From the NCBI GenBank assembly GCA_020137815.1, contig CM035357.1, positions 2,480,001-2,544,000 on the forward strand: a DNA stretch of 64,000 bases, written 5' to 3'. This document shows, piece after piece, positions 17,201 to 39,044 of this stretch (position 1 is its first letter; every line of letters begins with the position of its first letter). Made by a program: the position numbers and the translations under genes. The stretch comes from Hormiphora californensis (Eukaryota > Animalia > Ctenophora). The notes below the pieces were generated by a model that saw nothing but the letters and a program-made list of their open reading frames with translations, was not told the DNA's origin and did no database searches.

Positions 17201-20200
17201 CTTTACAGAGTGTAACTGATAAAGAGTTGGGGCCTCCTTTACAGAGTGTAACTGATAAAGAGTTGGGGCCTCCTTTACAGAGTGTTCCACAACCTTGCCC
17301 TTGGTAATTATCCCTCCGCGTTATAATAGCTCACGGAGCTATATGGACATGATCATAAAGTCGGGACACTTTTGAGATTTTATTTTTTCAAAATTTCGAC
17401 CAAAATTTTTGAAAACTCAATTTAAGGCATTTATTTTCATCTTAGGTCCACAAAAATTCAGGAGCAGACATGAAAATGTTAAAACCTGACCGTTTGATAA
17501 GCAAAAACTTGATAACTCAACTTATGTGGATCACAGAACAACATTTATAAAATCTCTGCTGGAGAGCATACAGTTTGAAATTTTGGTTGGTTGTTACATG
17601 GATTCGACAGAGAAACGTATACTAAACTAGCGTAATCTTGGTTGAGTCGCGAATTACTCAACTGATGTGGATTGTTCGGTCGCCAAACTTAAAAGTCAGT
17701 AAAACACGGTAAAAATCGCACTATAACCCAACTTTTAGCTTTCATAATGTCCTGAAGGGGTATCTCCTACCATATTGACCCATTTTAGATGCTCAACCGA
17801 TGTGGATTTCCTTATTTTGACCCGAAATTTGACTTTTTTCAACAAAATTGGTTTGATCCACCTGGGTTGAGCTACAGCCACCGAATGGCATTGTATGGGC
17901 ACTGGTATCAGTAGGTTAGCCATAACAGGTGTTTTAGGATTAGTTTGAACTCATTTGTGGATCAATTTGACATCAAATACGTTCCTTTAATATTGACCTT
18001 AGGTCATTCAATTGAAAATCCACATGAGTTGAGTCATCCTAGAACTAAATTAGGGGGCTATCTATTACCAGAAGAATCTCCTCTTCCCTTCTAGACCAGA
18101 ATCGAAATTCAATAACTGAGTTTTCACCCGGTTGAGTCGTTATAAAGCACTAAAAAGGGTGTGATCCACATAGGTTGAGCAATTTTGTTCTAAATTTCAA
18201 GTAAGAATGTTTGGATGATAAAACTCTAATGAAATCCAAGACGGCAAGTGTTAAACTCTGTTCTGTTTCAGTTGAGGAGGCTGATCCACACAAATTGATC
18301 CACATCACTTTGACAAGCTGTATCTTCTAGACCTGTGGATCAAAAATGATCCACTTTTCATGAAAATATTCGTTGGACGATTTCGAATTAGTTAGTCTGG
18401 TGGATCAGAATCCATTATGTGGATCAGCATCCATTATGGCCAACTAACTGAACCTTGCAAAAGTGTCCCGACTTTATGATCATGTCCATATGCAATATGA
18501 TAACAGGGGTGACTTCGTAACCAAACCTTGCCCCCAGTACCGCAAATGATTGTTCATATACCAGGTTAGATCGTTGAGCCTCGTACGAGTATCGAGGGAC
18601 GACAGCTCTAGGGCCAGAGCGGGATGATAGGAGCTTTCTTCTGTCTTAGCAAACGCCGGGGCCCCCGCTCTTTGAGCCGAAATGATCGGAATCATCACCG
18701 TGGTAACGCGAAGTTACCCCTCCCTTGCCAGCGCACTAAGGTCGTGAAGCGACCTGCGGTAGGGGTAACAGAACCGATATTACAACACAAAGCAGGTTTT
18801 GGGACTGGTAAACGTTTCGAAAACCCATTAATCCATTAATTATGAACCACTTTGACTGAGTCAAAAAAAGTAATACCTCTTCAACCACTCAATGATGAAT
18901 GAAAATACACCAAATTCTCGTATTCCCTACAAAATTGTCTGAAAAATGTAATTCTGTACTCATATTTGAAAACCCATCTCCAGAACCTTAGTTTTGAGAA
19001 GTCTTTTTCTTGAAAAGTACGTCGAGTATTCTCAATATCATACAAGATCATGGGAAAGTCTAAAGTTTCTTCAAAGCTCTGGCCGTCAAGATTAGAAAGG
19101 TCTTTAAATGTTGACAAAATACCTAAAACTTTTCTTCTAAGAAAAGTTTTAGGTATCTTGTCAACCTTTTAAAAGTCGCACGATTCGTAGAAAACGTTTC
19201 TCAGCTTCTAAGGTTCCAAATTCAACCTGGTACATGAAACAATATACAACTCCAAATGTATCCCTTCGGAAATTGAAAACGCCAGCTTTATTGACCGCTC
19301 TGCAATATATAATACATGTTTGTGTCAAAGCGAAATTCAGTCTCGATATCGCCTCACTGCACGACTAAGACCCCTAGTAATTACGATTAGTGGCGTAGAC
19401 TAAAGTCGGATTTTTTGAAGTTTTCACCTCCAAAGTTTTCTTGATTCTGTCTCGGGAGAGAATAACCCCCTAGATTACTCATGGAACCACGAGAGAGATA
19501 TTCAAAATTTATTAATCTCTAGTCGAGGTCACACCTTACCGCAGTGATCATCACCTCCACTCTTTCAGTTTCAAGTTGCGCTATGAGATACTTTTGAAAT
19601 AGGATAGTTGCTATTCGGTTAACTAATAATCCTCCCTGGGTGGCAAATTACTATATATCTCTATCTCTCTTTCTTCCTCTCTTCTCTTTCTTCCTCTCTC
19701 CCTTATAAGCTGTAAACCAGATAATCAGCAATCAACCAGTAAGAACGGTTCCAGTCTGATAATATCAGAATTCAGAGACAGTTTATGAGAACTTCCAAAC
19801 CACATCGAGTTAGATCGTCTGAGTAGTGAGTAGAATGTCCATTTCGGGGTAATAAGTACCCGTTGAATGATTAAGAAGTGAGTTTAGTGGTCTTAAAGGT
19901 TTCTAGTGATGCGACTGGACAGTTAATTCACTGCTAAAATGCTAACCATAAATATACTGCTTCATCGCTTTTGGATTCTGTATATTTTCTGTATCTAATG
20001 GACAGCTTATCGGACTCTAATCCTAGGCCGAAATCTTAACACTAACAAGGCTGCTTGTAGTGGCAGGGTGGTGTAGTGGCCAGTGCACTCGCCTTCCACG
20101 CGCTAGGTCACAGGTTCGGGCCTGGACTAGCGCAATGCCACCTAGACCGCCAAGTTATGATTGGTAGAGGCTCTTTCGAGAGTTACGCAAAGACGGTGCA

Positions 20201-23200
20201 TATCTAACCAATAAGGTTGCCTGCTTGGGGTGGCGCTCGAGCTATGCTGCAGAGAAATCTGTACCAAAAATGGACCGTCGCTGAACGCTATTCGTAATAG
20301 GAGATCAGCACCACGGCATCGTTCCGACCTACTTTTTTTGTAGTGAGAAAACGGTATTCAGCAAACTGTTTCGATGAAATACGCAAACGGTGCAGTGCAT
20401 CTGCGTAAAAAATAGGGTAGTATGGTAGTTAAGGTCGAGACGGCAAGAGTTCAGCAAGGTTCCGGGAAGTAAGATGTGTCTCGTAATTATATTTTTCTCT
20501 GAACTTTAAGATAAAGTAGTTATTATAGTATTTGAACTTAAGATAAGTTATGCAAAAACGTCAAATGGTTCTGTTTTTCAGTGGTATGATATGAAACATC
20601 GGCTGCTCGAGAATCAGACGTCAAACGAGCAATTTATCAAATTCATATATTCATATATTCATATATTAAAAATATATGAAAAATGTCAAAGTAAAAAGGT
20701 ACGCAGTAAAGTATTTTAACTCTAGACTTGGTGGTCTGACAGATGTCATGATAAAAAATTATAACTTTGTTAGACAATATCTTATACAGACTTAGTTAAC
20801 CGAGTGTCTTTAAAATAATGACAAATGGAATCGATAGCTATTGTGACAGCTATTAACAGTTAAATTACCTGAAGGTCGACTCCCTTTTCTATCAGAGTTT
20901 TTAGAGTTCCGCTCCCTTCGTTGGAACTGGCTGCGTAGTGACAGCTTGTTCTACCTGGGTGGGCGGAACAACTTCAAACCTCGGTTAACCTCGATTTAAC
21001 AGGGTCACCAAGAGAGGTGGATATAAAAATACACGGTATGCCGATCAGGGTGCGTGGTAAATCGGGGTGCACGGTATGTCGATTGTCGAGGTGCACGGTA
21101 AATCGGGGTTTGATTATAACACATTTACGTTTTTGATGACAGCTGTTTATTATAATAGGGCAGCACACGACGTCAGAAACTTCATTGGGAAACAGGTTCC
21201 GAATTTTGCGATCTAACATTTAACTATGATAGTTAGAAGTTCAGTTGGTAATGAAATAACCTCTCGTCGCGGGCTGCGGGATATATTGCAGCGTAATATT
21301 AGGGATGACTTCGTAACCAAGAAGTTCAGACATCAACCCATGGGATGACACTTGTCACTTACCGTTGCCAGGGGGATAACTTCTACCGTTGCCAGGGGGG
21401 ATAACACCTACTGTTGCCAGGGGGATAACACCTACCGTTGCCAGGGGATAACAATTAACACCTACCGTTGCCAGGGGGATGACACCTACCGTTGCCAGGG
21501 GGATAACACCTACCATAGAGATCTGGCATGTTGACATCTGCACCAAAGTTGATGAGACACTGAACTGCGTGATTTTGGTTCATCATAGCAGCCAGGTGAA
21601 GAGGAGTCCTATGGTGTTCATCCCTGAAAGAAGTTGTGGACTAGTACCTTTCAGTCGAACCACATAGATGCCACTTTTTCCTTCCACCCTCACTGGACGT
21701 GTTTTTAACGTTTATGAGAAAGGGGTTTGTCTCCCCTTTTTCGAATGTTGAACTAGACGAAATTCTGAGAAAATGCTTGAAATGCTTGACAAATGACAAA
21801 TCAAATTTCTACGGTAAACATAAAGTTCTAGGTATCTTGTCAATCTTTAAGGTGGTTAAGGTACCAAAATTTCGGGGAAAGCATTCGACTACCAGACTAG
21901 ACCAATTACAGCTTGTTTAACAGCAAACCATTCTGATATGATAGTTGTGATTGCTTACTTTAAGGGTTGAGACATAACATATATCTTGCCTTGGCTAGAC
22001 CGAGACGCGTGGTATCAATGGTATCATCTGGGATTGACATGTTCCTTGTCTGTCAGCTCTCACACCGGGCCGAAGGCCCGGTGTGAGCTTACGCGAGCCC
22101 GAAGTGCCGACAGACAGACTGCGTAGCATGGCAAATCTGGGAGGGGTCCAGCCCTAAAAAAGCTAAGCCATCGGCCAAAGTTAGGGTACCGTTAGTTTTT
22201 TAATAGCTTTTTTAGTTTTTTTTAAATCTTTTTAGACTTTTTAGTTGCCTTTTTCAGGACATAAAAATAATTTTGATATTTCTAAAGAAAATGGTGCTAA
22301 AAAAGGCTATAAAAGCTAAGAAAGCTAAAAAAAGCTAAAAGAATGCCATCTACCGACAGCAGGGTACCGCGACAGTTAGCCTTTTTAGGGCTAGAACCCC
22401 CCCCCCAGTCTAGGCCATTATCAGTCTAGACCAGGATTATTATTCATTACCTTATAGTAAGATGTTCGGTGTGGGCACATAGCAGTCTGACGCACTCTCC
22501 CTCTCCATGGTAGGCTGCCAGGTGAAGGGCACTCTGACCCCGGCTATCCAGTATCTCTGTTCCGCCGTACTTCAACAACTCCTTAACTACTGACGTGTGA
22601 CCACCTAGAGGAATGAATAAAGATATATATCATTGCTGACTGCTGAGGTCAGAGAGGTGTCGACAGATCATCTTGAGCAATAACAATGTAATATGTACGA
22701 ATCTCTCGAATATATAATATTTTCATCAGAATTTTGGTTCTGATGGCACTGTAAAAATTAGAATTAATATGGCCCAAAATTAAGCTTTTCAGCATCCCAG
22801 CAGACATTTTTTAATTTTTGGTTATTGCTTGCTCTTCAATCTGACTTTATAGGTTGAACACCTAGAAAAGCAGTTACTTTCGCAGTTACTTCCGATTTGT
22901 TTCATTTAAGAGGTGCCAACAAATTATCTTGATAGATATATTATATTGCTCTTCCTCTCTGAGCTGGTTAAGCAGTCAATGCAGCCACTGGCAAAGTAGT
23001 GTTCAGCTGTCATGCCAATGACCTCCGACAGCTATTTCCTGGATCATCTAGAAAACGATACGTAATGTACGTATATAGTTTATGAATTGTTCATGGGGTG
23101 CTTAGCTGCAAGATCAATGCCATAATTCCAACTTAATATAATATCGTTTATCAAGAGGACAGATATAATCTCAAAGTTTCTTCACTATCAATTTACACCA

Positions 23201-23995
23201 AGTAGTTATTGACTCTACTACCAAGTACCATTCCAGTAGAAGATGGTTCTTTATTTCTTTTCATATTTTTCTTCATCTCAAAATATATTTGAGATGTCCT
23301 TTGAAGACCTACCTTTGCCACACATCATAGAAGCTGCTTCAAATTAAACCCAAAGTAAATCTAAACCGTATGACCAGCTTAGAATGCCCCACTTTGAGCT
23401 AAAAAGTTCAATTTCACAATTATGTAACCATAATAAAATATGTGCACAAAAAGAGGGACGAGGGTGAATTATAGTTAAAATATAGTTAAAAATAGACCAT
23501 ACCTTGACATGCATCATGCAATGCAATCCGGCCGGTGTGTGATGATGTGAGAGGGTTAAATCCGGCCCTTATCAGTTCTATGGTCGTGTCAAGGTGCCCA
23601 TATCCGGCGGCGTGGTGTAGGGCATTTCGTTCGGATGATGTGCACTTCTTTAACCCTGAATGATATGATGATATGAGACCAGTGTTTTGAAAACCAGTCC
23701 AAAAGGGTTTTAGGTTGGGCACGTCGCGGTCAATTGGAACGAAACCATTGGAAAAATATTATTTGTGATTTAACAAATTGTCTCACAAACTATCTATCGA
23801 ATTGTAGCTATCTAAGCTGAGCAAGGTTCCCAAATGGATCTGACTACTGTTGAACTGTCAGGCAACTGCTGCTGCCTGCTGCACCAGTTAATATTTCATT
23901 CTTATTCATATACATGTTTTACCTTCATTATTAAGAAGGAGCTGCTTAACTGCCTCAGTATCTCCCCTGTCAACATTTGCAAGAAAAATATCCAT
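5279..23995 (-). CDS. Ankyrin-repeat protein; exons 23995-23923, 23655-23503, 22604-22451, 21623-21514, 20954-20869, 5389-5279 (possible last exon 98-75, uncertain)
   Basis: GT-AG introns with matching phases give MDIFLANVDRGDTEAVKQLL..ERNALHHAAGYGH..GRIALHDACQGGH..GQSALHLAAYHG..HRTPLHLAA..GADVNMPDLYGRTSCHYAA..GVDLQVRCRQGRLPLHY, i.e. consecutive ankyrin repeats. Confidence 0.9.
6410..6630. repeat. CT-rich low-complexity/microsatellite tract
   Basis: Runs of ctctct with cagctc and cacctc variants. Confidence 0.9.
6818..7827. mobile_element. Non-autonomous Tc1/mariner-type element, ~107-bp TIRs, TA TSD
   Basis: TA|CAAGGTGGCCCATAAATTATG ... CATAATTTATGGGCCACCTTG|TA; also an internal ~150-bp inverted repeat (7380-7520 vs 7580-7720). 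Confidence 0.85.
8281..9048. mobile_element. Nested pair: ~70-bp TTGGT...ACCAA mini-element containing a 696-bp relative (8310-9005)
   Basis: Inner element flanked by a perfect 9-bp TSD ATTATAGGC (8301-8309, 9006-9014). Outer flanks TGTCAAAGT/TGACAAAGC (7/9). Confidence 0.8.
9134..9497. mobile_element. MITE with CCCAGTGGCTTTTTA TIRs and 8-bp TSD
   Basis: CATCCCAC flanks both ends (9126-9133, 9498-9505). Confidence 0.8.
10437..10480 (-). ncRNA. Minimal type I hammerhead ribozyme (Penelope-like/retrozyme type)
   Basis: Minus strand reads AAACAC-CUGAGGA-UUCAG AUUGA CUGAU-GAAA-CUAG-UU-GUGUUU: complete core, 6-bp stem I, 4-bp stem II, palindromic stem III AACUAGUU. Confidence 0.7.
11430..14858 (+). 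CDS. Rhodopsin-class (family A) orphan GPCR, ~378 aa; exons 11430-11532, 12980-13102, 13948-14858
   Basis: Phase-1 GT-AG introns join MADANSS..GSIAIFSFVIG|TPGS..ISIVD..LLPN|GISE..WFCVGW..LSISRT..YVLFNLP..LNSVTNVLIY; seven hydrophobic segments and an N-terminal NSS sequon. Confidence 0.9.
11640..11990. mobile_element. PIF/Harbinger-like MITE in GPCR intron 1
   Basis: TIRs GGGACCATTCAAAAAGGACGTCCA / TGGACGTCCTTTTTGAACGATCCC; a lone right TIR of the same family lies at 11132-11153. Confidence 0.7.
12214..12499. repeat. Short repeat with 11-bp subrepeats and two adjacent hairpins
   Basis: (AAGGATTACGC)-type array at 12246-12340; ~33-bp perfect stem at 12372-12449; second stem at 12450-12493. 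Confidence 0.6.
15166..15295. mobile_element. Tc1/mariner-type MITE (CAGTCGGACC family), TA TSD
   Basis: TA|CAGTCGGACCCCGATTTACCGGG ... GGTCCGACTG|TA; relatives at 25959-26106 and 38477-38648. Confidence 0.85.
16371..16436. mobile_element. 66-bp TIR mini-element, 9-bp TSD
   Basis: TTGGTAATGAAATTACCCCT...GTGACTTCGTAACCAA flanked by GCGGCACAG/GCGACACAG. Confidence 0.8.
16577..17285. repeat. Perfect 36-bp minisatellite, ~19.7 copies
   Basis: Unit AGTTGGGGCCTCCTTTACAGAGTGTAACTGATAAAG repeated head to tail, no spacers. Confidence 0.98.
17301..18524. mobile_element. TIR mini-element (TSD ACCTTGCCC) carrying a nested ~1.15-kb TA-flanked element (~17344-18488)
   Basis: Perfect 9-bp TSD on both sides; inner TIR TGGACATGATCATAAAGTCGGGACACTTTTG is inverted at the other end. 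Confidence 0.85.
18701..19403 (-). mobile_element. Diverged inverted copy of the 8310-9005 element
   Basis: Collinear reverse-complement similarity, e.g. 18880-18990 vs 8800-8902 and 19280-19305 vs 8510-8545. Confidence 0.75.
20063..20337 (+). mobile_element. tRNA-Gly-derived SINE
   Basis: Head GCAGGGTGGTGTAGTGG..CTCGCCTTCCACGCG..AGGTTCG resembles eukaryotic tRNA-Gly; T-rich end; 8-bp TSD TTGTAGTG (20055-20062, 20338-20345). Confidence 0.75.
21245..21320. mobile_element. 76-bp TIR mini-element, perfect 9-bp TSD GAAGTTCAG
   Basis: TTGGTAATGAAATAACC...GATGACTTCGTAACCAA with the same 9-mer on both sides. Confidence 0.85.
21359..21513. repeat. ~24-bp minisatellite at an ankyrin-gene 5' splice site
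   Basis: Unit GTTGCCAGGGGGATAACACCTACC; the minus strand repeats GTAGGT. Confidence 0.9.
22127..22418. mobile_element. Degenerate MITE
   Basis: CTGGGAGGGGTCCAGCCCTAAAAAAGCTAA is inverted as TTAGCCTTTTTAGGGCTAGAACCCCCCCCCAG. Confidence 0.6.
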
Positions 23996-24779
23996 CACAC
24001 TGGTCTCTAAGAAATAATTTCAATATAAGTCTGGCATATATCAGTTATAGTTTTCTAAGAAACAAAGGAGACCACATAAACCATATTTTATAGATTTATA
24101 GATTTATAGGTTTCTATGGGTTCTATGGTATGCAGGTATAGTTAGATTATATGATTCTTGGAAAGAGAAAAGGTCAAAAGGACTATAATCTCAGCGTGAC
24201 TAGTACAGCGCCGTGCAATATAATGGACGAATATTCAACAAGCAAGGATTATTAGTTGAGAAGTAGAGTCAGTCAGAGAAAGAGAGAGAGAGATTGAGAG
24301 AGAAAGAGAGAGAAAGAGAGAGACCCAGAGGAAAAATCCGAAAGCTGTGCAGTATATCGTGGTGTTAAGAAGCACGGAGGAGAAAATGATGAAATGAGAT
24401 GAAACAAGATGTGGCAATTCTCCAGCTTGTACATTTATATATTTTATGGACAGAATAGGTGACAATTGTGCACTGTATTTTTGTTTCCCTAACCTAAAAA
24501 TCATGACCTAGAAATCCTCAGGACACTGTCCTTAATCCATTCCAATCTTCAAATATGAAACTCGATCTTTACTATAAAAGTTACAAACAATTGGAAATCC
24601 TGAATACATGACCACAAAGCACAACTATAAAACTATAAAACTATAAAACTAAACTTCGAAATCTAAAAACCAAAAACACACTTTGTTAAGTAATAAATAT
24701 CATAAATGTTTGCTATCAGTCCGCAAAATATGTATCAGATTGTCTTAAACAAATAAAAACCCATTATTTTGAATCATCC

Positions 24780-27700
24780 CTATTCCTTTCCCTTCTTTTT
24801 CTTTTTTGAGTCCTTCACAACGGTCACAATGTACTCAGAACCGGCAATCATCTGAAATGAAGAGAATTGTTACTTGGGGTCAGCACACACCAAAGTTAAA
24901 ATTAAAATTTTGATTTTAACGCCGCACACACCAGCGGCCGTTAAAATTTCTCTCCCCCATTCTAAAAGTAACGATCTCGCGTGCCATGATATTTCACATT
25001 AAATGCACAATGTGCATTGCACATTCTGCAGGGTGTCCATTGCACCTTCTATTCCAACCTTTGATCTTCTTCATTTTCATCCAATCAATACTTCCCAGTT
25101 CCCACAATCCAAGAGAAAAACTATACAACACCTTGTGGAAAACTCTTGCATTTCAAGCTGCATTTCCTTCCAATCAATGTCACACCTTAGCTCAATTCCA
25201 TCCCATGTTCACACACACAGACACACACACAGACACACACCCACACACACACACACACACACGAGCAAACCTGTGGAACGCCAGCAAAGACGAGTTGTTC
25301 GTTGACAATGTTCGTCCATCGTTTGCCGGACACGGGGTTAGTTGGGGCGGGGTGAAGCAGAGGGTAGACATGGGGACCAACCTCCTGACTACAGAACAGT
25401 TTACCAACCTGAGATTATAATAAGACATTTTAAGAACTGGGATGGAATTGGTAATGAAATTACCCCTCTGTTATTATTGCTCACGTATGCAGCAATAAAA
25501 GGGGTGACTTCGTAACCAAGGATGGGAGGGGGATATTGGGGTAGATGAAGTTGATAAATGATAATATTCAATAAATATTGAGTTAAGTAAGTGGTTGTAT
25601 GAAGCGGACAGGTAACAATTTATATGCTGCATCTTTATCATAGGCAGTAAAGAGGAAGCAGTCGATAAAGATCTTGATTTATAATTGAGATAAAGATCTC
25701 ATCCACAGAAGAAGAATCACCACATTTGAGGACTTTCTGGAGACGTTAAAAAACGACAGTAGCAAAAATATGAATTCGACTATGATGAGATTTCCCTGCA
25801 CTAAAAAATTCTTCGGTGTACCCTTAAATATTATATAGTTAAAAGTATTAAGAAGCTACCAGAATCCAGACAAATAACTATCCAATATGAATTTATTTAT
25901 TTCAATTCATATTGGATAGTTATTTGTCTGGACTCTGGGCTCTGGACTATAACTACTGCAGTCGGACCCCGATTTAACGGCACCCTGGGGGAAGGGTTTT
26001 TTCCCGTTAAATCGGGGTTTCCGCTAGATCGGGGTCAAATACTGTTAACTTCCTATATCGGGGGAAGATTATCCTGCCGTCGGGGTGCCGTTAAATCGGG
26101 GTCCGATAAATTGGTCTTTTGAGAGCGGGAAAAAGACAAAAATGCTCGGAGAGCTATTCTCTCCTAAAGTCGGATTTTTTCAAGATGTCACCCCCAAATG
26201 CACACAATTTTGACACACACACTTTAACATGTGATGTGACACGCAAACGAAACGAGCGCACGAGAAGGGGGTGACAATTTCAAAAACCCGACTTTACCTA
26301 CAACAATCTTGTCCAATTCTGAATCGGTTCACTCTCACTATATAGTCGGTTTTTTAAAGCTTTCAAACTTCTTAAATGCCCGTAACTCCGGTTCCTGATA
26401 AGATAGAGACTTGAAATTTGAGGTTACAAATATTATGACAGGTTCTTCCGAACCTCCAAACTTTAAGTCTTTATCTTACCTGGAACCGGAGATTTTACTA
26501 ATTTTGTTATTTCAAACGACACTCATTTAAAATCCGACTATAAATGCCATTGCTCAACGGTATACGACTGAAAGCGTTTAAAGACGCTAAATAGCTGTTG
26601 AATGGTTTGAAGGGGACTTTAAATACCTGCTGAAACGCAAATCCCCCGATAGCCACCACGATCGCTGGCCGAAGAATCTCGACGATATCAATTATGTGGA
26701 GATCGCAGTGGGTGATTACTTGGTTCCGTAGCTCGTGTGGCAAGCACGCTGGTACCACCTGAGAGGGAGAGAGGAAGAGAGAGAGAGAGAGAGAGAGATC
26801 ATGCGTGGCACGTGTGGTTTTCTAGAAGGTAAGTTATAGGAATGCAAATGATTTACTAGTTACGAAGTAAATCCAAACTAGAGAATCAGATGACATACCT
26901 GCATACCAAATGTTAGCAGATACAAAATATACGCGACCTACCTCTTTTCCCCGCTCATCTACATACAAGGCAGGGCAGTATGTGGTAACGTAGCATTTTC
27001 TCGCGAATTCCTTCATGCTGTATCTGGTCTCAAAGAACCTCCAAAACCGTTCTCCTTCCGGGTCCGCCCTAAGAGTTTCCCATCCCGTGACAGGTAGTTT
27101 CTCGTGGGAGACTTTGGGGGAACTAAAAATATTAGATTCAGGACTTTATAAGGTAAAATAATTAGAGATCATAAATAATGGTATTGTTTTTTCATTTTGT
27201 CTTCTCCAAATATTCACCTGATTTCAAGAGGTGGGACGTTGAGATATTCCTTCACATGTTTAGTATTTCCGAAGGGAACACCATTCTGGGCCATGCCGTA
27301 GGGTGTAGCGCTCATCCCCACAAACAATATGGGCTTCTCGGCATTGCCGTACTTGCACACGTAGGCACAGTGCGGCTCACATGCATACACCAGGGGATTA
27401 TACATCCTGGGGAGCAGCCCGGTTAACTGGAAATTAGAATCGGACCTCGATTCACCGGGCCTCTACCCTAGTAAACACGACGGTAAGTTGCATTTTATCC
27501 GCTCGGTAAGTGTCGGTATACCGAAGCTTACCGAGCGGTAAATGCAACTTACCGACACGCGGCGCTACTTACCGACGGTTTACCGAGCCGGTAAATGCAA
27601 CTTTTTGTCACACGCAAATCTGAGATTTAATGTTTTGGTCCAAAAGTTAAAACTCGTCACAAACTTGTTTATATAACTTGTTTATATAACTTGCTTATAT

Positions 27701-28170
27701 CAATTCGCTACCGAAAAAATATACCTTATTTCAACTCTTCCAACTTTTTGGACCAAAACAATAAATCTCAGATTTGCGAGTGACAAAAAGTTGCATTTAC
27801 CGGCTCGGTAAACCGTCGGTAAGTAGCGCCGCGCGTCGGTAAGTTGCATTTACCGCTCGGTAAGCTTCGGTATACCGACACTTACCGAGCGGATAAATGC
27901 AACTTACCGACACGTCGTGTTAATTACTAGGGTATTTACCGGAACCCCTATTTACCGGGAGGATTAACTTCCCTCAAATATTTTGGCAAATTTCACTGAC
28001 AATTTCAGAATTTAGAATTTTCTAATAAACTTATACTGCTGTTACTGGCAGTATATTGTTTTCGAAACTTACGTTAGTTTCCCTTTATCATGTCGTTCCA
28101 GGTTGGCTATGAGCCTCGCTTCGGAAGCAAATATCTGATGGGCCACATGCGTATCGTCTAATCCAAGCAT
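24780..28170 (-). CDS. SMUG1: SMUG1-family uracil-DNA glycosylase-like protein, 269 aa; exons 28170-28073, 27406-27218, 27122-26942, 26758-26627, 25408-25271, 24851-24780
   Basis: The spliced frame (810 nt) gives YNPLVYACEPH..ILFVGMSATPYGMAQNGVPFG..GERFWRFF..CYVTTYCP..VVAIGGFA..LLHPAPTNP..W, collinear with SMUG1 (YNPVEYAWEPH, GMNPGPFGMAQTGVPFG, GARFWGFF, HNLCP, LLHPSPRNP); C-terminal KKKKK. Confidence 0.9.
25448..25519. mobile_element. 72-bp TIR mini-element
   Basis: TTGGTAATGAAATTACCCCT...GGGGTGACTTCGTAACCAA; imperfect flanking duplication GGATGG(A/G)A. Confidence 0.75.
27466..27932. mobile_element. 467-bp near-perfect foldback element, TA TSD
   Basis: TA|CCCTAGTAA...TTACTAGGG|TA; arms of ~200 bp are reverse complements. 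Confidence 0.9.
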
Positions 28171-29996
28171 TGCAGGTGCCAGCTAATTAATGAAATACAA
28201 TCATTTAAACAAACCATTCTCAAGTATACATTATTGGAGCACGGCGCACGCTATTATACGAACTCACACACATTCAAAATCCTGCTCCCAAGTCCCAACT
28301 GCCGACGCCTTCCTTTTCTCGATATATGATTTTGATCGCACGAAAAAGATTTGATTCCTGATGTGCTGATCTTAACCATTCAAGTCAAAACATCCAATCC
28401 ATTGACGATTGCCCATTTATACATAAAATTTTCCAATTTCCAATTCCTAGCCCTGGGAAATTCGGCCAGCGTTAAAATCTGGGTGTTTTGGGAGTGCTGA
28501 CAAACGTTTTTTTTTTAGGGTTAGGGCTAAAGTAGGGTTAGGGTTGGGGTTTGGGTCGGGTTATCATCATCATCATCACAAAATACTTAATATTCCGCTT
28601 TATAGCTTTTACTTGTCATTATTATTACAAGAACCGGAGAGAGATCGATTAGACATGTATGAGGTCAGTTGCCCGAAATAGGTCCATGATGACCAGATAG
28701 TCGAAGAGCGAGAGAGACAAGACCAGATAGTCGGAGAGCGAGAGAGACAAGTCGTTACTCAAACTAAGATAAGATGAATAAAAGCATATTGTTTACAATT
28801 AAAATCAGCTGAGCTATCAAGCATCCTAATGTTATAAAGCATTGAATAAGTGGCTAGTACAATGGTCTAACGTGAGTTTCGTTGCACAAATTAGAACAAT
28901 GGTTATGTTATGCTACAATAATTGTAGCATAACATAACCCTAATAGTCGTTCTAATTTGTAGTACAATTGTTTCATTACGGCCCTTTATACCCTAATCAC
29001 TGGAGACAATGAAAGATATGCCTGACATTTTACTTGAGACGTGTCTATAATGCACTTGTAACTCCTCCTTCCAACCCTGTTTTGAGAATGAAACAGAGAA
29101 TGAACAGAGAATGAAACAGAGAATGAACAGAAAATGAGAGAGAGAATGAGAGAGAGAATGAGAGAGAGAATGAACAGAAAATGAGAGAGAGAATGAGAGA
29201 GAGAATGAACACAAAGAGGGAGACGGTGCTTTTGAAACATTTCAACACTGTTATACTTAAAAGCAATGAATTTTACTAAAACCCGTTTGAGGAATTCCGC
29301 CGCCTTTCCCCTTTTGTTAATCTTTGTAACAGCCGAAAGAAGTGACATTTGCATTGTAACAGATCATAAGGAATTTATGTGTCACTGATTATACTTACTG
29401 TCCCAAAGTTTCTCCATTGGGTGCGCCTCAAGTAAGGGCTTTTTTATAACCCACCCGGCTTCGCCGGGTGGTTCTTTTCGCCCCTTTCAACGTCAATAAC
29501 ACGGTTGCCATGGCAACTGAATTGGTAACTATGGGGACTGGCATGTCAAAAGTCATTTGAAAATATTAACAAACTTCCACTGGAAGTTCCAAAAGTGTGA
29601 ATGACAGCTTTACAGCTTTGGGCCCATGAAGTGTTTTATGAAGGAGCAGTCTGTCGCTTAGATACCGCTGAACGAACGACCACTTCGACGCGACATCTCC
29701 AAATTATAATAGAGATTATTAAATCTGTTTACAATAATTTGACACTGTCAATATTGCCCTCCTATTTGCGAGGAAAATGGAACTCTCTAGGTCTCTTTCA
29801 CACTTTCTCAGCTGTCAGATCATACAAAAAAATATAAAATGTCGATTAAAATACTGATTAGATAATGATTAAAATATATTGTAAATTGATTAAATAAGTT
29901 AGTTAAAAATTCACTCCGTGGAGTGCGATTCGTACACAGTGTGTACGTCTCGGGCTGGTCAGTTATACATTTACAATTAATTAGAATATAAACCCA

Positions 29997-32900
29997 TTAC
30001 ACAAGCAGTTGATCCCCAAATAAAGATTGTTCTATTACAGCTCTTACTAGCTTTCTAAAGTTCGATTTTACCTGCTTGTCTTTGGAGAAAATTAGTGGAA
30101 GATGGAAGTTCATTTCATAAGAAGATATCACCCTTAGTTCCTCACGGGGCCCTTCCACATCTTTTATCGCAGAACATTCAAACAACTTGTGGAATGTTGA
30201 ATCTGGGAGTTGGCCACATTCAAGACAATTGGGAACTGTAAGTGATCGCTCGTATCTCAGGTAACTGAAGCTGAAGTCTTGAAAACGTAAGGATCTGCCA
30301 TGTACAAAGTCTAAGACCTGAGATGAGTTCTGTCGGGACATGTTTCTTGGAATTATGGGGAAATCCAAAGTGGCCTCTGAGTTGATAAGGTTGGCGAGTT
30401 CTTCTTGAGAGTGAATAGGAAGTATGCTGAAAGGGTCATCTCGAGTCAAATGGTTAATCGATGATTTGAGTGACCGGTCCCATAAACTACATGTGTACTG
30501 TCTCATTTCCTCTTTTGAGTACAGGAAAGTGTCTGGCTCTAAACTTCCCAAGTTAATAGTTCTGATTGAATCTCTGTTAGAATCCTGGATCTGGACACCG
30601 TCTAGTTGAGTCGACTTCCAAACCAAATATCTTTTGGTAGCAGCAATCTGCCAGAAGAACACATGATTTTGTTCCGCTTCAATTTGTAGTAGTTTAGCTG
30701 ATATATTATCTTTAGCTGCAAGGCCTTTTAGGACAAATTTGGTTACCACTGTTTCCACAAGAACGTCAATAGGAGGCACGCATGCTAGGAGTTCTGACAG
30801 AGGTTTGGCTATGTGAACTTGTCCCCCTGTTATCTTCAGCCGTGCTCGGGAAAGAAGATCTCCGAAGAAGTCCGTTCGCTGTCTTAACCAAACTGGTGCT
30901 GCATAAAGGATCTTTGTCAAGATTACTGTTCTGAATAGTAGCGAAAGCCCCGAACTGTTAATCCCTGTCAGTCGACCAGTCATTGAGGTTAATGTGTTCC
31001 AGTTAAACCAGCATCTTTTCAGTACATCAGCAGCATGAGTCATGAAATTTAGGTTACTATCAATGTAAACCCCAAGGACTTTACTATTCTTGGCAAAAGT
31101 GACAACTTTATTTCCAATCTTCAGTTGCTGAGGTGATGCACTATCATCTGATGAACCCCTTGGTCTGATGATGACAATCTCTGTTTTATTTCTATCACAG
31201 TTCACCGCTAGTCTCCACTTCCGACACCAGTTGTGAATGTAGTCCAAAACTATTGCCATAGTTCTCTCGCATTGAGTCTGGTCTCCAAAAACCAACACAG
31301 ATCCGTCGTCGGCGAACTTGAATGCTTCAGTCCTACATCTCACCTCCTCCGGCAGATTTTTGGTGCAGAGTAAGTCAGAGATGTAGAGAATGAATAGGAT
31401 TGGAGAGAGGACTGCCCCCTGGGGAAGGCCTACTCTTCCACACCTACGGAGTGGGCCAAGAACTCCATTGATCTTCAAACGAACACTTCTTTGTGAAAGC
31501 ATGTTGTCGATAAGGTTCAACAGCATTCCATTGATTCCAAGTTTATGGAGCTTCACAATCAAACATTCATGGGGAACTGAGTCAAAAGCTTTTTGGAAAT
31601 CTATACACAACAGAAAGGCTGTCAGCTTTCTTCTGCGTGTTTCATGAACGGTCGATAGCAGCTTGAAGAGATAGCGAGTGGTGTTTCGTGCCGGTAGGAA
31701 GCCCTCTTGTTCCTCATCTGGTATTGATTCCATGGCGCAAAGATCTTTAATTCTTTTGTCCATAACCCTTTCAAGCATCTTTCCGATGTACGATGATATT
31801 GTGATGGGTCGGAAGGAACCTGGTTTTACATAGGACGACTTTCCAGGTTTCTGGATGAATGTAACGTAGGAAGAGTTCCACAGCCATCGACCCAGCTTTA
31901 GGCATCTCGAAAACATATCGGCTAAGTACTGCACAGTTCTGTGGCGAAGGTGTTTCAGCATGGTTGGGTGGATACCATCTCCGTCCCAGGCTTTACCACT
32001 CGCTTTCATAGAGCTGATGGCTGCTGATACTTCGTCGGCGGCTACTGGGCGATTGAGTTGATCCTCCGGGTCGTGATGATCGTCATCCTCTATCTCGTTC
32101 TTCAAACGAGCATAATCCTCAGTTATTCCGTCGAGGTGAACATCGTCAAAATCCTCACCTTGTAGGTGTTTACCAGTAAAGTAGGCATCAAAGAGGATGA
32201 GATCTTTTTCAGAGTCAAGGTGCAGAAGATCTCCGTTTTGGTTTTCTAAACATCCAATAGTATTCTCCTCTTTGGCAAGGAACATTCTGCGATATTGCTC
32301 CCAGAATTCACTGCATTCTTGGACATTGAGACCGTTTAGTCGCTGGTGAATCCACTCGTTTTTCTTCTTAATCAGCGCCTCCTTGAAAATATCTTTGGCT
32401 TGCTCCACTGCTTCTTTGTTGATATTAGTTCTTCTATAGCGCAGCCTTTTCTGAGCATCTCTGAGTTTTACAGACAACTCTGACAATTCAGGAGTCCAAA
32501 ATGGCCGGGAATGTTTGCAAATGGTCTTTGTTGGGATGTGGCTCTCGTTGGAAGATTTTAAACAGTCTAAAAAGTTGTGAAGCATACTGTCAGGAGATTC
32601 AGTAACAGATGGAGGATGTTCACAAAGTACACTCTCAACTTCAAGGGACCAGAGCTTCCAGTCAGTTCTGGCGAGATCAGGTACCTCTCTTTTTGAGGCT
32701 CTTGAGTTCTGGAAATTCATTTCTGTAAAAACTGGGGCGTGACCACGCGATGGGAACCCTGTAAAAAGGGTGTAGGCCGCCTCTTCGTCAACCCAAGGGT
32801 GCTGCTGGATGCCAGCATTCCCGAACATAAGTCCTATGTCAATCACACTTCCCCCGTTGTTACAAAGAAATGTATTTCTACCGGGCGAAAGGGCTACACA

Positions 32901-33389
32901 CTTTTCCGTGTCACAAAATTCCAGCAGCTGTTTTCCCTCCTTATTAGTTTGCCTGTCACCTAGGGGAATGCATCGTGCATTTAGATCTCCAAGAACAAGT
33001 AAAGAACGGATGCCAGAGGATTTACAGAGCGCCCAAGCATTTCTGATAACATCGAGAAGTGGAGATAAACTGTTGCTGGGGGAACGGTAGACAGATCCTA
33101 CCATCAATGGCTTGTTGTCGATCTGGATGGTTGCGAAGACAGCACCAAATAGGGCGGATTCAAGTTTGTGGATGCGCTGTGGCTTTAAATCAGGGTTTAT
33201 GGAGAGTGATACTCCCCGGTCGGCAGAAACTCCAAAGGTCTTCATATTAGTGAATGTGTTACCAGCAGGTGAGGTTCCCACCTCCTGCAAGGCGAGTATG
33301 CTAATACGTCTTGTATAACATAAACGATCTACTGCAATTGCAGATTGGGGACTAAGACCGCTCACGTTTAATTGACACAAACTAACCAT
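29997..33389 (-). CDS. LINE ORF2: APE endonuclease + reverse transcriptase + C-terminal CCHC
   Basis: LNVSGL, LALQE, VYRSP, GDLNA, IDI (APE); FRPITI, QEGF, IDFQKAFDSV, GLPQGAVLSP, FADD, LGV (RT); CLEC..H...C. Confidence 0.97.
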   Translation of the reverse strand: MVSLCQLNVSGLSPQSAIAVDRLCYTRRISILALQEVGTSPAGNTFTNMKTFGVSADRGVSLSINPDLKPQRIHKLESALFGAVFATIQIDNKPLMVGSVYRSPSNSLSPLLDVIRNAWALCKSSGIRSLLVLGDLNARCIPLGDRQTNKEGKQLLEFCDTEKCVALSPGRNTFLCNNGGSVIDIGLMFGNAGIQQHPWVDEEAAYTLFTGFPSRGHAPVFTEMNFQNSRASKREVPDLARTDWKLWSLEVESVLCEHPPSVTESPDSMLHNFLDCLKSSNESHIPTKTICKHSRPFWTPELSELSVKLRDAQKRLRYRRTNINKEAVEQAKDIFKEALIKKKNEWIHQRLNGLNVQECSEFWEQYRRMFLAKEENTIGCLENQNGDLLHLDSEKDLILFDAYFTGKHLQGEDFDDVHLDGITEDYARLKNEIEDDDHHDPEDQLNRPVAADEVSAAISSMKASGKAWDGDGIHPTMLKHLRHRTVQYLADMFSRCLKLGRWLWNSSYVTFIQKPGKSSYVKPGSFRPITISSYIGKMLERVMDKRIKDLCAMESIPDEEQEGFLPARNTTRYLFKLLSTVHETRRRKLTAFLLCIDFQKAFDSVPHECLIVKLHKLGINGMLLNLIDNMLSQRSVRLKINGVLGPLRRCGRVGLPQGAVLSPILFILYISDLLCTKNLPEEVRCRTEAFKFADDGSVLVFGDQTQCERTMAIVLDYIHNWCRKWRLAVNCDRNKTEIVIIRPRGSSDDSASPQQLKIGNKVVTFAKNSKVLGVYIDSNLNFMTHAADVLKRCWFNWNTLTSMTGRLTGINSSGLSLLFRTVILTKILYAAPVWLRQRTDFFGDLLSRARLKITGGQVHIAKPLSELLACVPPIDVLVETVVTKFVLKGLAAKDNISAKLLQIEAEQNHVFFWQIAATKRYLVWKSTQLDGVQIQDSNRDSIRTINLGSLEPDTFLYSKEEMRQYTCSLWDRSLKSSINHLTRDDPFSILPIHSQEELANLINSEATLDFPIIPRNMSRQNSSQVLDFVHGRSLRFQDFSFSYLRYERSLTVPNCLECGQLPDSTFHKLFECSAIKDVEGPREELRVISSYEMNFHLPLIFSKDKQVKSNFRKLVRAVIEQSLFGDQLLV

Positions 33390-34773
33390 AGTGCATTTTT
33401 GAGAGAATAGGGCAGTTCATTGATGTGGCGGAATGGTTGCGGTCCCTACTGTTAACACAGTTTGAGCACTTTAGACGAGATGAATCCCCAGTTGATACAA
33501 CAGGACAATCCACAGGTTTGTGATCCTCAGAGCAATGAGGACAACAACGTTTCTGTCTACACCAACAGGCTGGGTGACCAAACTGGAAGCAGTTATAGCA
33601 CTGGTTGCTTTTCGGAGATCTCGTATCAACGTATTGCCTTATCCGACATGATTGGTACTCTAATCGGAGTCCAGAACTTATAGCAGCATCTCGTCCTTGT
33701 TCAGTTTCAAAGATTATCATTACTGAAGATGTAGGTGTGCGACTTCTACCGAGCATTCTCCGTACATGGGTGGGCTTGACACCCAGTTTGACCTCCAGAC
33801 TTTCTGAGATTTCAGCTTCCAAAACTGAAGGGTCCACATTCTCAGCTACGCACTTGTGACCTCCCTCAGACAGAATGGATGCACGTGTTGATTTATCATC
33901 GCTAGCAAAGAAGTTAGGCTTCCAATCACGAACGACAGTTTCTGCATCTTCACTTGAAGTCATCTCCAATAGAAGATAACCCCGCCTTGTCGGCTTGACC
34001 TGGGAGATTACAATGTTAGGGTAGTATTTGTGAAATTCTTTCGAAGTTAAATATCCCTGCTTAATGAACTTTTCATAATCTGTGACTCCTCTTACTATAA
34101 CTGTTCTCTTAGCATCACACAAATTAGATCGGTTTGCACCATGAGAAGAGTTCTTAAAACTGTTATTTGTGCCCTTAAAAACTTCTCTCTGAACATTTGC
34201 AACTCTCTGTGAATCACCACACTCATCAACACTTGGTTTGGCCCTGACAATAGCTTGTGAACCGAGAGCTGTTGCGTAGCTCTGGTTAATGGATTTACTC
34301 ATCTCCTCCAAGAAAGACGATACTTTAGTGTCTATCGCATGTTCAAAATTGTCTAAGCGGTCTTCTAGTACCCTCTGAGTAAGTACAGACGGTTCGTTGC
34401 TCATACTCTTAATAGTACAGTTCAGTTCATCGTCCCTACAGCTGGGACAAAACCATGCTAAACCCTCGTATTCGTTTATCAGCAAACAGGTTTTATCATC
34501 ATCTAGAACGGCAGAACAGTCACTATTTCGGCATGTTACAGTATACTCTCCATTGATGGTTGACGGGGCATTAGATGCCTGCTCATGTAGATCGTCCAAA
34601 AGTTCAAGCGTGAGACAGTACGCACTCCTTAATAACTGTAGTATATCAGTACGGCTGGGCTTGGAAGAAGGGGGATTTGGTGATCCCTTGGTGACATAAG
34701 TCATTAACCCTTTCTGTTCAACTGCGGCTTTCAACGCAAGAAATCCATCGTGGGTGTCTCGAACAGTTTTCAT
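33382..34773 (-). CDS. LINE ORF1 (gag-like, three zinc knuckles, N-terminal Cys cluster)
   Basis: CYNCFQFGHPACWC, CPHCSEDHKPVDC, CSNC..H..C; WFCPSC; stop codon overlaps the ORF2 ATG by 8 nt. Confidence 0.93.
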   Translation of the reverse strand: MKTVRDTHDGFLALKAAVEQKGLMTYVTKGSPNPPSSKPSRTDILQLLRSAYCLTLELLDDLHEQASNAPSTINGEYTVTCRNSDCSAVLDDDKTCLLINEYEGLAWFCPSCRDDELNCTIKSMSNEPSVLTQRVLEDRLDNFEHAIDTKVSSFLEEMSKSINQSYATALGSQAIVRAKPSVDECGDSQRVANVQREVFKGTNNSFKNSSHGANRSNLCDAKRTVIVRGVTDYEKFIKQGYLTSKEFHKYYPNIVISQVKPTRRGYLLLEMTSSEDAETVVRDWKPNFFASDDKSTRASILSEGGHKCVAENVDPSVLEAEISESLEVKLGVKPTHVRRMLGRSRTPTSSVMIIFETEQGRDAAISSGLRLEYQSCRIRQYVDTRSPKSNQCYNCFQFGHPACWCRQKRCCPHCSEDHKPVDCPVVSTGDSSRLKCSNCVNSRDRNHSATSMNCPILSKMHYG

Positions 34774-37301: not shown

Positions 37302-37586
37302 ATCGTGATATAGATAAAAACCTTACAGCTATAATACTCTCACAATCACATATAAAATGTAGTTCATGCAAAATAACTATAATCTAATTCATAACTGTGA
37401 TTTAAAACCCCAAATCTTTCCCTGAAAAAAATTTTAATTTGATTAAAAAAGAATTTCCCGAATAATTTTAACCATCATAAAACCGAATTTTAACTTTTTT
37501 GAAATTTAAAAACGACTATTTAAACGCTAAATCCCTTGAAGGTTTGGGGATAAAACTTTTTAAAACGCTAAATGCTGTTGGAATTT

Positions 37587-38785
37587 TCGCTGGCCGAAGA
37601 ATCTCGACGATATCAATTATGTGGAGATCGCAGTGGGTGATTACTTGGTTCCGTAGCTCGTGTGGCAAGCACGCTGGTACCACCTGAGAGGGAGAGAGGA
37701 AGAGAGAGAGAGAGAGAGAGATCATGCGTGGCACGTGTGGTTTTCTAGAAGGTAAGTTATAGGAATGCAAATGATTTACTAGTTACGAAGTAAATCCAAA
37801 CTAGAGAATCAGATGACATACCTGCATACCAAATGTTAGCAGATACAAAATATACGCGACCTACCTCTTTTCCCCGCTCATCTACATACAAGGCAGGGCA
37901 ATATGTGGTAACGTAGCATTTTCTCGCGAATTCCTTCATGCTGTATCTGGTCTCAAAGAACCTCCAAAACCGTTCTCCTTCCGGGTCCGCCCTAAGAGTT
38001 TCCCATCCCGTGACAGGTAGTTTCTCGTGGGAGACTTTGGGGGAACTAAAAATATTAGATTCAGGACTTTATAAGGTAAAATAATTAGAGATCATAAATA
38101 ATGGTATTGTTTTTTCATTTTGTCTTCTCCAAATATTCACCTGATTTCAAGAGGTGGGACGTTGAGATATTCCTTCACATGTTTAGTATTTCCGAAGGGA
38201 ACACCATTCTGGGCCATGCCGTAGGGTGTAGCGCTCATCCCCACAAACAATATGGGCTTCTCGGCATTGCCGTACTTGCACACGTAGGCACAGTGCGGCT
38301 CACATGCATACACCAGGGGATTATACATCCTGGGGATCAGCCCGGTTAACTGGAAATTAGAATCGGACCTCGATTTACCGGGCCTCTACCCTAGTAAACA
38401 CTCTTTAACTTCCCTCAAATATTTTGGCAAATTTCACTGACAATTTCAGAATTTAGAATTTTCTAATAAACTTATACAGTCGGACCCCGATTTAGGGACA
38501 CCCTCGGGGGAAAGGCTCTTGTCCACTAAATCGGGGTGTCCACTAAATCGGGGTCAAATTAGGTTAGTTTCCTATAACGGGGGAAAAAAATCCTGTCCCT
38601 AAATCGGGGTGCCACTAAATCGGGGGCCCCTAAATCGGGGTCCGACTGTACTGCTGTTACTGGCAGTATATTGTTTTCGAAACTTACGTTAGTTTCCCTT
38701 TATCATGTCGTTCCAGGTTGGCTATGAGCCTCGCTTCGGAAGCAAATATCTGATGGGCCACATGAGTATCGTCTAATCCAAGCAT
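37587..38785 (-). pseudogene. Truncated second copy of the SMUG1-like gene (exons 38785-38688, 38329-38141, 38045-37865, part of exon 4); may be an uncollapsed allele
   Basis: Nearly identical to 26662-28170; similarity stops inside exon 4, so the HPAP-motif exon is missing. Confidence 0.8.
38477..38648. mobile_element. 172-bp Tc1/mariner-type MITE, TA TSD
   Basis: TA|CAGTCGGACCCCGATTTAGGG...TAAATCGGGGTCCGACTG|TA; absent at the paralogous site 28030-28040. Confidence 0.92.
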
Positions 38786-39044
38786 TGCAGGTGCCAGCTA
38801 ATTAATGAAATACAATCATTTAAACAAACCATTCTCAAGTATACATTATTGGAGCACGCTATTATACGAACTCACACACATTCAAAATCCTGCTCCCAAG
38901 TCCCAACTGCCGACGCTCTCGTTTTCTCGATATATTATTTTGGTCGCACGAAAACGATTTGATTCCTGATGTGCTGATCTTAACCATTCAAGTCAAAACA
39001 TCCAATCCATTGCCCATTTATACATAAAATTTTCCGATTTCCAA

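What the first reader, a model, noticed from the sequence alone, without database searches (positions are those of the whole stretch)
24780..28170. Intact SMUG1 homolog with a rewired active site: candidate pseudo-glycosylase or modified-base reader
Seen: a full, cleanly spliced 269-aa ORF in which motif 1 is GMSATPYGM, the HNLCP region is TTYCP and motif 2 is HPAPTN. Established (human numbering, from memory): SMUG1 has GMNPGPFGM with catalytic N85 and C5-pocket G87/M91, uracil-contacting N163, and HPSPRN with H239 and wedge R243. The implied changes are N85S, P86A, G87T, N163T, S241A and R243T, while F98, M91 and H239 are kept. Inference: loss of ordinary uracil excision with the fold retained points to a different substrate or a non-catalytic binding role.
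Basis: partly seen in the sequence, partly recalled or inferred. Interest (0 to 1): 0.7.

Follow-up and report, generated by a model that had tools for sequence, protein, structure and literature searches.

The report
Comb-jelly SMUG1 with dismantled DNA-repair site
This intact, spliced gene encodes a comb-jelly version of the DNA-repair enzyme SMUG1 in which the catalytic asparagine, the uracil-reading asparagine and most DNA-gripping residues are replaced in the same way in three named comb-jelly genera, so it likely no longer removes uracil from DNA and has likely been repurposed, perhaps as a protein-binding module.

Summary
Observation confirmed. Six GT-AG exons on the minus strand give 269 aa with GMSATPYGM, TTYCP and HPAPTN. 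One oligo-dT RNA contig splices exons 3-4-5 exactly. The gene is not a decaying one-off: four other full-length proteins (Bolinopsis, Mnemiopsis, two unnamed; 61-72% identical to it) and a Pleurobrachia bachei fragment share the rewiring. Of sites at least 90% conserved in 47 canonical SMUG1s, 7 of 11 functional ones changed and 0 of 26 others. The most invariant segment (residues 199-214) is variable in canonical SMUG1 and maps to the region where human SMUG1 binds dyskerin. Best reading (0.5): a pseudo-glycosylase that has let go of DNA and binds proteins. Rivals: an enzyme or binder for a phosphate-free ligand (0.25), or a modified-base reader on DNA (0.17). R243T is not diagnostic. A truncated, near-identical second copy lies 11 kb away. 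Activity, partners and the presence of a canonical paralog are untested. Our literature searches and earlier scan notes showed no description of it.

The parts
28073..28170 (-). Coding exon 1 (aa 1-33), start ATG at 28170
   Evidence: same start Met in the Bolinopsis and Mnemiopsis proteins; P0001 has 28 extra N-terminal residues not found in the window
27218..27406 (-). Coding exon 2 (aa 33-96) with motif 1 GMSATPYGM (S65=N85, A66=P86, T67=G87, M71=M91) and F78=F98
26942..27122 (-). Coding exon 3 (aa 96-156): L105=R124, D116=E135, E118=S137, T143=N163 (TTYCP), E156=N176
   Evidence: 26940-27079 covered by the spliced RNA contig of X7
26627..26758 (-). Coding exon 4 (aa 157-200): V158=T178, R167=R187 (kept), G195=R215
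   Evidence: in the X7 spliced contig
25271..25408 (-). Coding exon 5 (aa 201-246): most of the newly invariant segment QVGKLFCSxEVGP and motif 2 HPAPTN (H219=H239 kept, A221=S241, T223=R243, N224=N244 kept)
   Evidence: 25337-25406 in the X7 spliced contig
24780..24851 (-). Coding exon 6 (aa 247-269 and stop) with a poly-lysine tail, likely a nuclear localisation signal (inferred)
   Evidence: poly-lysine tail in all 5 full-length proteins; junction not seen in RNA
37587..39044 (-). Truncated second copy: upstream flank, exons 1-3 and the first 97 nt of exon 4, then unrelated sequence with a stop 23 codons later; lacks motif 2
   Evidence: 2 synonymous differences in 565 coding nt; the copies differ by intron-1 insertions

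Best explanation
The gene is an intact, spliced comb-jelly SMUG1 homolog whose catalytic Asn, uracil-reading Asn and most DNA-contacting residues are replaced in all five full-length proteins examined, so it likely neither grips DNA nor excises uracil and likely acts as a non-catalytic protein-binding module. Shown: the gene, one spliced RNA contig, the shared substitutions and their concentration at functional sites. Predicted: the SMUG1 fold. Inferred, step by step: (1) on the ctenophore stem the enzyme site was dismantled in a burst of change; (2) glutamates at two phosphate/sugar-binding positions and loss of R124 and R215 disfavour DNA binding; (3) selection moved to a surface helix and loop (residues 199-214, human 219-234) that human SMUG1 uses for dyskerin; (4) the basic tail takes the protein to the nucleus or nucleolus, where it binds a partner, possibly keeping SMUG1's RNA-processing side role. 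The partner is unknown.
For: Five full-length proteins, 61-83% identical, share S at N85, T at N163, D at E135, E at S137, E at N176, G at R215 and a non-Arg at R124. N85 is N in 47 of 47 canonical rows, P86 in 47 of 47, N163 in 44 of 46, N176 in 44 of 46, S137 in 42 of 47 and S241 in 40 of 42. At the 90% conservation cut, 7 of 11 functional sites and 0 of 26 other sites changed (Fisher p 3e-5); at 80%, 8 of 13 against 6 of 43 (p 0.0015). Each of the five has 8-10 changes at 13 conserved functional sites; no canonical row has more than 4. PMC13230825 (passages and section 11): S137 and S241 bind the 5' phosphate, N176 the abasic sugar; R124A lowers kcat/Km 60-fold and R215A 25-fold; N85A is called inactive. 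Tree: stem 2.14 changes per site, tips 0.05-0.25, support 100/100. Residues 200-213 are invariant at 12 of 14 positions, against 21% mean identity in canonical rows; PMC7826747 section 5.1 places dyskerin binding at human 25-35 and 220-233. Listed coding differences are mostly silent: 10 of 10 in X8, 9 of 11 codons in X10.
Against: H239, N244, R187 and M91 are invariant in all five, and the replacement residues S65, D116, E118, T143 and E156 are also invariant, as a working site would be; background invariance is 131 of 269, so this does not discriminate. SMUG1 tolerates single pocket mutations: N85A 3-7%, G87V 22-58%, N163D 11-32%, R243A 94% of wild type (PMC1919486 tables). Family 4 UDGa works without a polar residue at the motif-1 catalytic position (PMC5387724). 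The other dyskerin-binding region (human 25-35) is invariant at only 4 of 11 positions. Net core charge is 0 to +6, overlapping canonical 0 to +9. R215 is Arg in only 17 of 46 canonical rows and Gly in up to 3. The confident model depends on canonical homologs in its alignment.
Confidence: 0.5

Rival explanations
1. A rewired N-glycosidase or binder for a phosphate-free or non-DNA ligand (free nucleoside, nucleotide or RNA end). H219 and F78 would still hold and activate a base, while E118 and E156 would replace the phosphate contacts with sugar-hydroxyl or metal contacts. E156 sits where N176 touches the abasic sugar and could act as general base or nucleophile.
For: H219, N224, E118, E156, D116, S65 and T143 are invariant in 5 of 5. 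In family 4 UDGa a motif-3 Asn (N89) positions the water and His does most of the catalysis (PMC5387724). N176 hydrogen-bonds the abasic sugar (PMC13230825). That N89 and N176 are equivalent is my inference from motif order and was not tested.
Against: The base-stacking Phe is Leu in P0193, P0002 and P0178, and M84/G87 vary in P0181, whereas F98 is 47 of 47 in canonical rows. No base-edge-reading amide remains. No model coordinates were available to check the geometry.
Confidence: 0.25
2. One reading: the protein still binds DNA or RNA and reads or excises a base other than uracil, or shields abasic sites without cutting.
For: H239, N244, R187, P240 and P242 are kept, and position 140 stays Arg or Lys. 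Human N85A still binds uracil-DNA like wild type. The poly-lysine tail could add nucleic-acid affinity.
Against: S137E, N176E, R124L/M, T178V/P, R215G and S241A/N all fall on DNA contacts named in PMC13230825. R215A alone abolishes detectable binding to unmodified DNA, and R124A weakens uracil-DNA binding from 7 to 2455 nM.
Confidence: 0.17
3. An ordinary, if slow, uracil/5hmU glycosylase that has drifted on a long ctenophore branch with compensating changes.
For: RefSeq names the Bolinopsis protein SMUG1-like. Single pocket mutants keep some activity. Long stems are common in ctenophore genes (recalled).
Against: Changes are concentrated at functional sites while the other highly conserved sites are untouched. 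Named animal SMUG1 cores are 42-53% identical to bacterial-type ones but only 34-41% to this group.
Confidence: 0.06
4. A pseudogene or annotation artefact.
For: A truncated copy lies nearby among transposon fragments. RNA support for this allele is a single low-depth contig.
Against: Intact frame, spliced RNA, mostly silent differences, and intact orthologs in Bolinopsis and Mnemiopsis at 72% identity.
Confidence: 0.02

Closest known systems
SMUG1, UDG family 3 (human 9ggs/9gm2/9gk0, Xenopus 1oe4, Geobacter 5h93)
   Same: Homologous over the full domain (Bolinopsis ortholog vs human E 3e-41). Model of the ortholog matches at Z 36-37, rmsd 1.3-1.5 A over 240-244 residues. M84, M91, H239, R187 and N244 kept; F98 kept in 4 of 5.
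   Different: About 33-34% identity. N85S, P86A/S, G87T/S, R124L/M, E135D, S137E, N163T, N176E, T178V/P, R215G and S241A/N in all five. New invariant segment at 199-214, four new invariant cysteines (C46, C50, C161, C206) and a poly-lysine tail.
UDG family 4 (UDGa) and family 5 (UDGb)
   Same: Same superfamily fold (Z 13-14, rmsd about 3 A). Active without a polar motif-1 catalytic residue, using His in motif 2 and a motif-3 Asn (PMC5387724 passages).
   Different: Far more distant than SMUG1. They keep the uracil-reading Asn (N80 in family 4), which is Thr here; the presumed motif-3 Asn position is Glu here.
SMUG2 (Pedobacter heparinus, 5h0j/5h0k)
   Same: SMUG-like fold, Z 20, rmsd 3.1 A over 220 residues.
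   Different: 14% identity; a separate bacterial branch. Its motifs were not compared here.
Non-catalytic glycosylase homologs such as fission-yeast Mag2
   Same: A glycosylase fold kept without excision activity (recalled; I saw only the title of Dalhus et al. 2013 in a reference list, and review passages that do not state inactivity).
   Different: Different fold (HhH/AlkA, recalled). Mag2 still binds abasic DNA, whereas the DNA contacts here are dismantled.

Membership tests
SMUG1 (UDG family 3) | Sequence homology and UDG domain | tested here: met
   Exons 2, 3 and 5 each hit SMUG1 chains first; 4 of 4 full-length orthologs pass the Pfam UDG cut-off of 24.3 bits with 27-36 bits
SMUG1 (UDG family 3) | SMUG1 fold | tested here: met
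   Model of Bolinopsis P0152, pLDDT 91.7; Foldseek TM 0.86 and Z 36-37 to SMUG1. The window's own spliced protein was not folded, and the model leans on canonical rows
SMUG1 (UDG family 3) | Motif 1 GMNPG with catalytic Asn85 | tested here: not met
   GMSAT/GMSSS in 5 of 5; Asn in 47 of 47 canonical rows
SMUG1 (UDG family 3) | Uracil-reading Asn163 and stacking Phe98 | tested here: not met
   Thr at 163 in 5 of 5; Phe98 in 4 of 5
SMUG1 (UDG family 3) | Motif 2 HPS with His239 and Ser241 | tested here: not met
   His kept in 5 of 5, Ser replaced by Ala or Asn in 5 of 5; Ser in 40 of 42 canonical rows
SMUG1 (UDG family 3) | DNA-backbone and abasic-sugar contacts (R124, S137, N176, T178, R187, R215, S241, N244) | tested here: not met
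   6 of 8 replaced in all five; R187 and N244 kept
SMUG1 (UDG family 3) | Excision of uracil and 5hmU from DNA | not testable with these tools
   Needs an enzyme assay
SMUG1 (UDG family 3) | Orthology to animal SMUG1 (single copy or derived paralog) | tested here: inconclusive
   The group sits on a long branch with no supported sister; no ctenophore genome could be searched
UDG family 4/5 | Motif-3 catalytic Asn and uracil-reading Asn | tested here: inconclusive
   Thr143 and Glu156 stand at the presumed positions, but the equivalence was not aligned directly; NCBIfam type-4 model gives 12 bits against a cut-off of 250
Pseudo-glycosylase (non-catalytic homolog) | No base-excision activity with a retained biological function | not testable with these tools
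   Inferred from substitutions and conservation only

The most novel reading that the evidence does not exclude
Comb jellies converted SMUG1 from a DNA-repair glycosylase into an enzyme for a phosphate-free substrate, such as a free modified nucleoside or an RNA end, by swapping the DNA-phosphate clamp for glutamates and placing a new catalytic carboxylate (E156) at the sugar. This would be a UDG-fold enzyme with a new substrate class and catalytic machinery, shared across the phylum.
Probability: 0.2. Interest if true: 0.8.

Novelty: new variant of a known kind. Interest (0 to 1): 0.6.

Why it matters
SMUG1's active site is nearly unchanged from bacteria to humans. A version shared by cydippid and lobate comb jellies that has dropped the catalytic and DNA-binding residues, yet is now strongly conserved, is a natural separation-of-function experiment. 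If it is non-catalytic it would show what SMUG1 does apart from repair, for instance its dyskerin-linked RNA role, in an early-branching animal lineage that has a laboratory model (Mnemiopsis; both points recalled). If it is catalytic, it extends UDG-fold chemistry. It also means the database label 'SMUG1-like glycosylase' is probably misleading for these proteins, and that comb jellies may lack 5hmU repair unless a canonical paralog exists.

Tried and rejected
No whole genome is held for this window, so a canonical SMUG1 or UNG paralog could not be sought genome-wide; within the 64 kb window tblastn finds only the two copies. No named canonical ctenophore SMUG1 turned up, but only 22 of about 190 proteins were submitted for source look-up, so absence is not shown. 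Complex prediction (a homodimer was planned) was not available, so self-association and partners are untested. A fold from the four orthologs alone was uninformative (pLDDT 31.5). Pfam on single exons gave only a weak UDG hit for exon 4 (E 0.24; 1 of 6 exons). Scans for this type in prokaryote genomes (0 of 39 pattern matches confirmed) and viral contigs (0 of 121) found nothing; the metagenome scan gave 4 loci at 46-49% identity that I did not analyse. Rfam found no family in 23000-41000. ESM Atlas returned only UDG clusters. No AATAAA/ATTAAA within 880 nt after the stop. A farnesylation-like tail (Cys near the C-terminus after poly-lysine in four orthologs) was considered and set aside because the window protein lacks the Cys. 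Fusion to the downstream ankyrin gene was set aside because the orthologs end at the same tail; proteins longer than 471 aa were searched only with exon 2. Literature: SMUG1+ctenophore 0 papers; SMUG1+Mnemiopsis 1, a mite genome paper; SMUG1+pseudoenzyme 0; ctenophor+DNA glycosylase 11, none on this by title or abstract start; one search gave 0; two searches gave nothing relevant. The library lacks most subscription papers. Earlier scan notes: none by sequence or in this genome, and none of the 8 shown of 15 word matches concerns this protein.

Full report
Gene. Six minus-strand exons (28073-28170, 27218-27406, 26942-27122, 26627-26758, 25271-25408, 24780-24851) join through GT-AG introns of 666, 95, 183, 1218 and 419 nt into 269 codons plus stop. 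GMSATPYGM begins at residue 63, TTYCP at 142 and HPAPTN at 219. Exons 2, 3 and 5 each hit SMUG1 chains first in the PDB.

Expression and constraint. Four of ten listed runs were laid. In X7, an oligo-dT metatranscriptome, one 362-nt contig (depth 4.45) lies on 25337-25406, 26625-26756 and 26940-27079 in unbroken record order with 2 differing letters. The skips equal introns 4 and 3, so the codons for D116, E118, T143, E156, G195, A221 and T223 are present in spliced RNA. A contig in X10 (RNA status is a guess) is about 85% identical and reads as a spliced relative across exons 1-2-3. Of the differences the tool listed (209 rows were cut), all 10 coding ones in X8 and 9 of 11 codons in X10 are synonymous. 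This is a subset, not a dN/dS estimate.

Relatives. Exon 2 finds a Pleurobrachia bachei model, P0001, identical at 82 of 84 aligned residues, so the window is most likely from a Pleurobrachia-like comb jelly (inferred). Cluster look-ups gave full-length proteins from Bolinopsis microptera (P0152, XP_063685638.1) and Mnemiopsis leidyi (P0195, KAL5267524.1), plus two unnamed ones (P0167, P0193). That the unnamed two are ctenophores is inferred from the tree and from genomic fragments that break at the same exon edges. The five are 61-83% identical, with 131 of 269 positions invariant. All 18 stored proteins matched by my rewired-motif pattern carry Ser at the N85 position by construction; the informative count is that among the 151 proteins then held, 148 motif-1 matches were found, 145 with Asn and 3 with Ser, all 3 in this group.

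Extent of the rewiring. I took the 19 residues named as base, sugar or backbone contacts in passages of PMC13230825. The list came from the paper but was drawn up after I had seen a first alignment. The comparison set was 47 canonical-type proteins: those of 197 held that aligned over at least 180 residues to P0017, with 7 near-duplicates dropped. Replaced in all five: N85S, P86A/S, G87T/S, R124L/M, E135D, S137E, N163T, N176E, T178V/P, R215G, S241A/N and R243T/S. Kept: M84, M91, R187, H239, N244, and F98 in four of five. At sites at least 90% conserved in the canonical set, 7 of 11 functional and 0 of 26 other sites changed (p 3e-5); at 80% it is 8 of 13 against 6 of 43, and at 70% 10 of 15 against 13 of 62 (both p about 0.001). 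R243, R215 and N244 vary widely in canonical SMUG1, so R243T says nothing. The tree shows a 2.14 stem and short tips, with no supported sister group.

What the changes should do. PMC13230825 (abstract, passages, section 11) reports that S137 and S241 bind the 5' phosphate, N176 the abasic sugar and T178 the 3' side; R124A and R215A cut kcat/Km 60- and 25-fold and weaken binding; N85A is inactive but still binds. PMC1919486 (passages with tables 1-2) is the caution: N85A keeps 3-7%, N163D 11-32%, G87V 22-58% and R243A 94%. Any single change is survivable. Twelve together, two of them placing glutamate where phosphate or sugar binds, make ordinary uracil excision from DNA unlikely (about 0.9, inferred).

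What is newly conserved. The most invariant 14-residue windows start at 199-201 (12 of 14), where canonical rows average 21-22% identity. This maps to human 219-234. PMC7826747 (passages and section 5.1) says human SMUG1 binds dyskerin through residues 25-35 and 220-233, which are not needed for catalysis. The 25-35 equivalent is invariant at only 4 of 11, so dyskerin is a lead and no more. All five proteins end in a poly-lysine tail. Four cysteines rare in canonical SMUG1 (C46, C50, C161, C206) are invariant, unexplained.

Structure. The Bolinopsis ortholog, folded with a 42-row alignment, gives pLDDT 91.7 and matches SMUG1 at Z 36-37, rmsd 1.3-1.5 A; SMUG2 follows at Z 20 and family 4 at Z 13-14. 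With the four orthologs alone the model failed, so the fold claim rests on homology.

Mechanism. The best reading (0.5) is a pseudo-glycosylase that has let go of DNA and works through the newly constrained surface as a nuclear protein-binding module. The main rival (0.25) keeps a working pocket for a phosphate-free ligand. H219 is invariant, and PMC5387724 (abstract, passages, table 1) shows family 4 UDGa cuts with His plus a motif-3 Asn and no polar motif-1 residue; the presumed equivalent here is an invariant Glu156. Leu for F98 in three stored sequences argues against strict base stacking. A modified-base or abasic-site reader on DNA gets 0.17, an ordinary glycosylase 0.06 and a pseudogene 0.02.

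Second copy. 37587-39044 repeats the upstream flank, exons 1-3 and 97 nt of exon 4 with 2 synonymous differences in 565 coding nt, then runs into unrelated sequence and stops 23 codons later. It lacks motif 2 and carries the same rewiring, so it is not the canonical paralog. A retrotransposon ORF lies between the copies.

Novelty. The searches listed under Tried and rejected found no description. Sequence databases hold the orthologs under 'SMUG1-like' or 'hypothetical' names. Supplements of ctenophore genome papers were not searched and might list the gene. I file it as a new variant of a known kind: SMUG1-derived, failing the family's catalytic-motif tests, with function inferred and untested. 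Whether comb jellies also keep a canonical SMUG1 is open.

Noticed in passing
window 37587-39044: Truncated near-identical second copy of the gene. In DNA run X5, contigs over exons 2-4 have depths of 303-570 against 63 over exon 6, while X8 is flat at about 30-60; this hints at more partial copies in some individuals, though contig depth is no copy number.
   Followed up: partly
window 21458-23758 (- strand): Exons of an ankyrin-repeat gene about 1 kb downstream on the same strand.
   Followed up: partly
window 29997-34806 (- strand): Long open frames of a LINE-like retrotransposon: 474-aa frame with a zinc-knuckle-like end, and a 1139-aa endonuclease/reverse transcriptase frame.
   Followed up: partly
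window 16566-17285: Tandem array with a 72-nt period at over 99% identity (the ORF text suggests a 36-nt unit), open in several frames.
   Followed up: no
window 27479-27963 and 38478-38651: Different intron-1 insertions in the two gene copies; both look like high-copy palindromic elements.
   Followed up: no
P0152, P0195, P0193, P0167 C-termini: Poly-lysine followed by a Cys four or five residues from the end, reminiscent of a prenylation tail; the window protein has no such Cys.
   Followed up: no
P0004 (761 aa, unnamed): Protein with three tandem SMUG1-like domains, the first two degenerate and the third near-canonical.
   Followed up: no
window 13893-14858 (+), 42272-43243 (-), 60155-60559 (-): A rhodopsin-family GPCR frame, an MFS/sugar-transporter frame and an FG-GAP (integrin-like) exon.
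   Followed up: no
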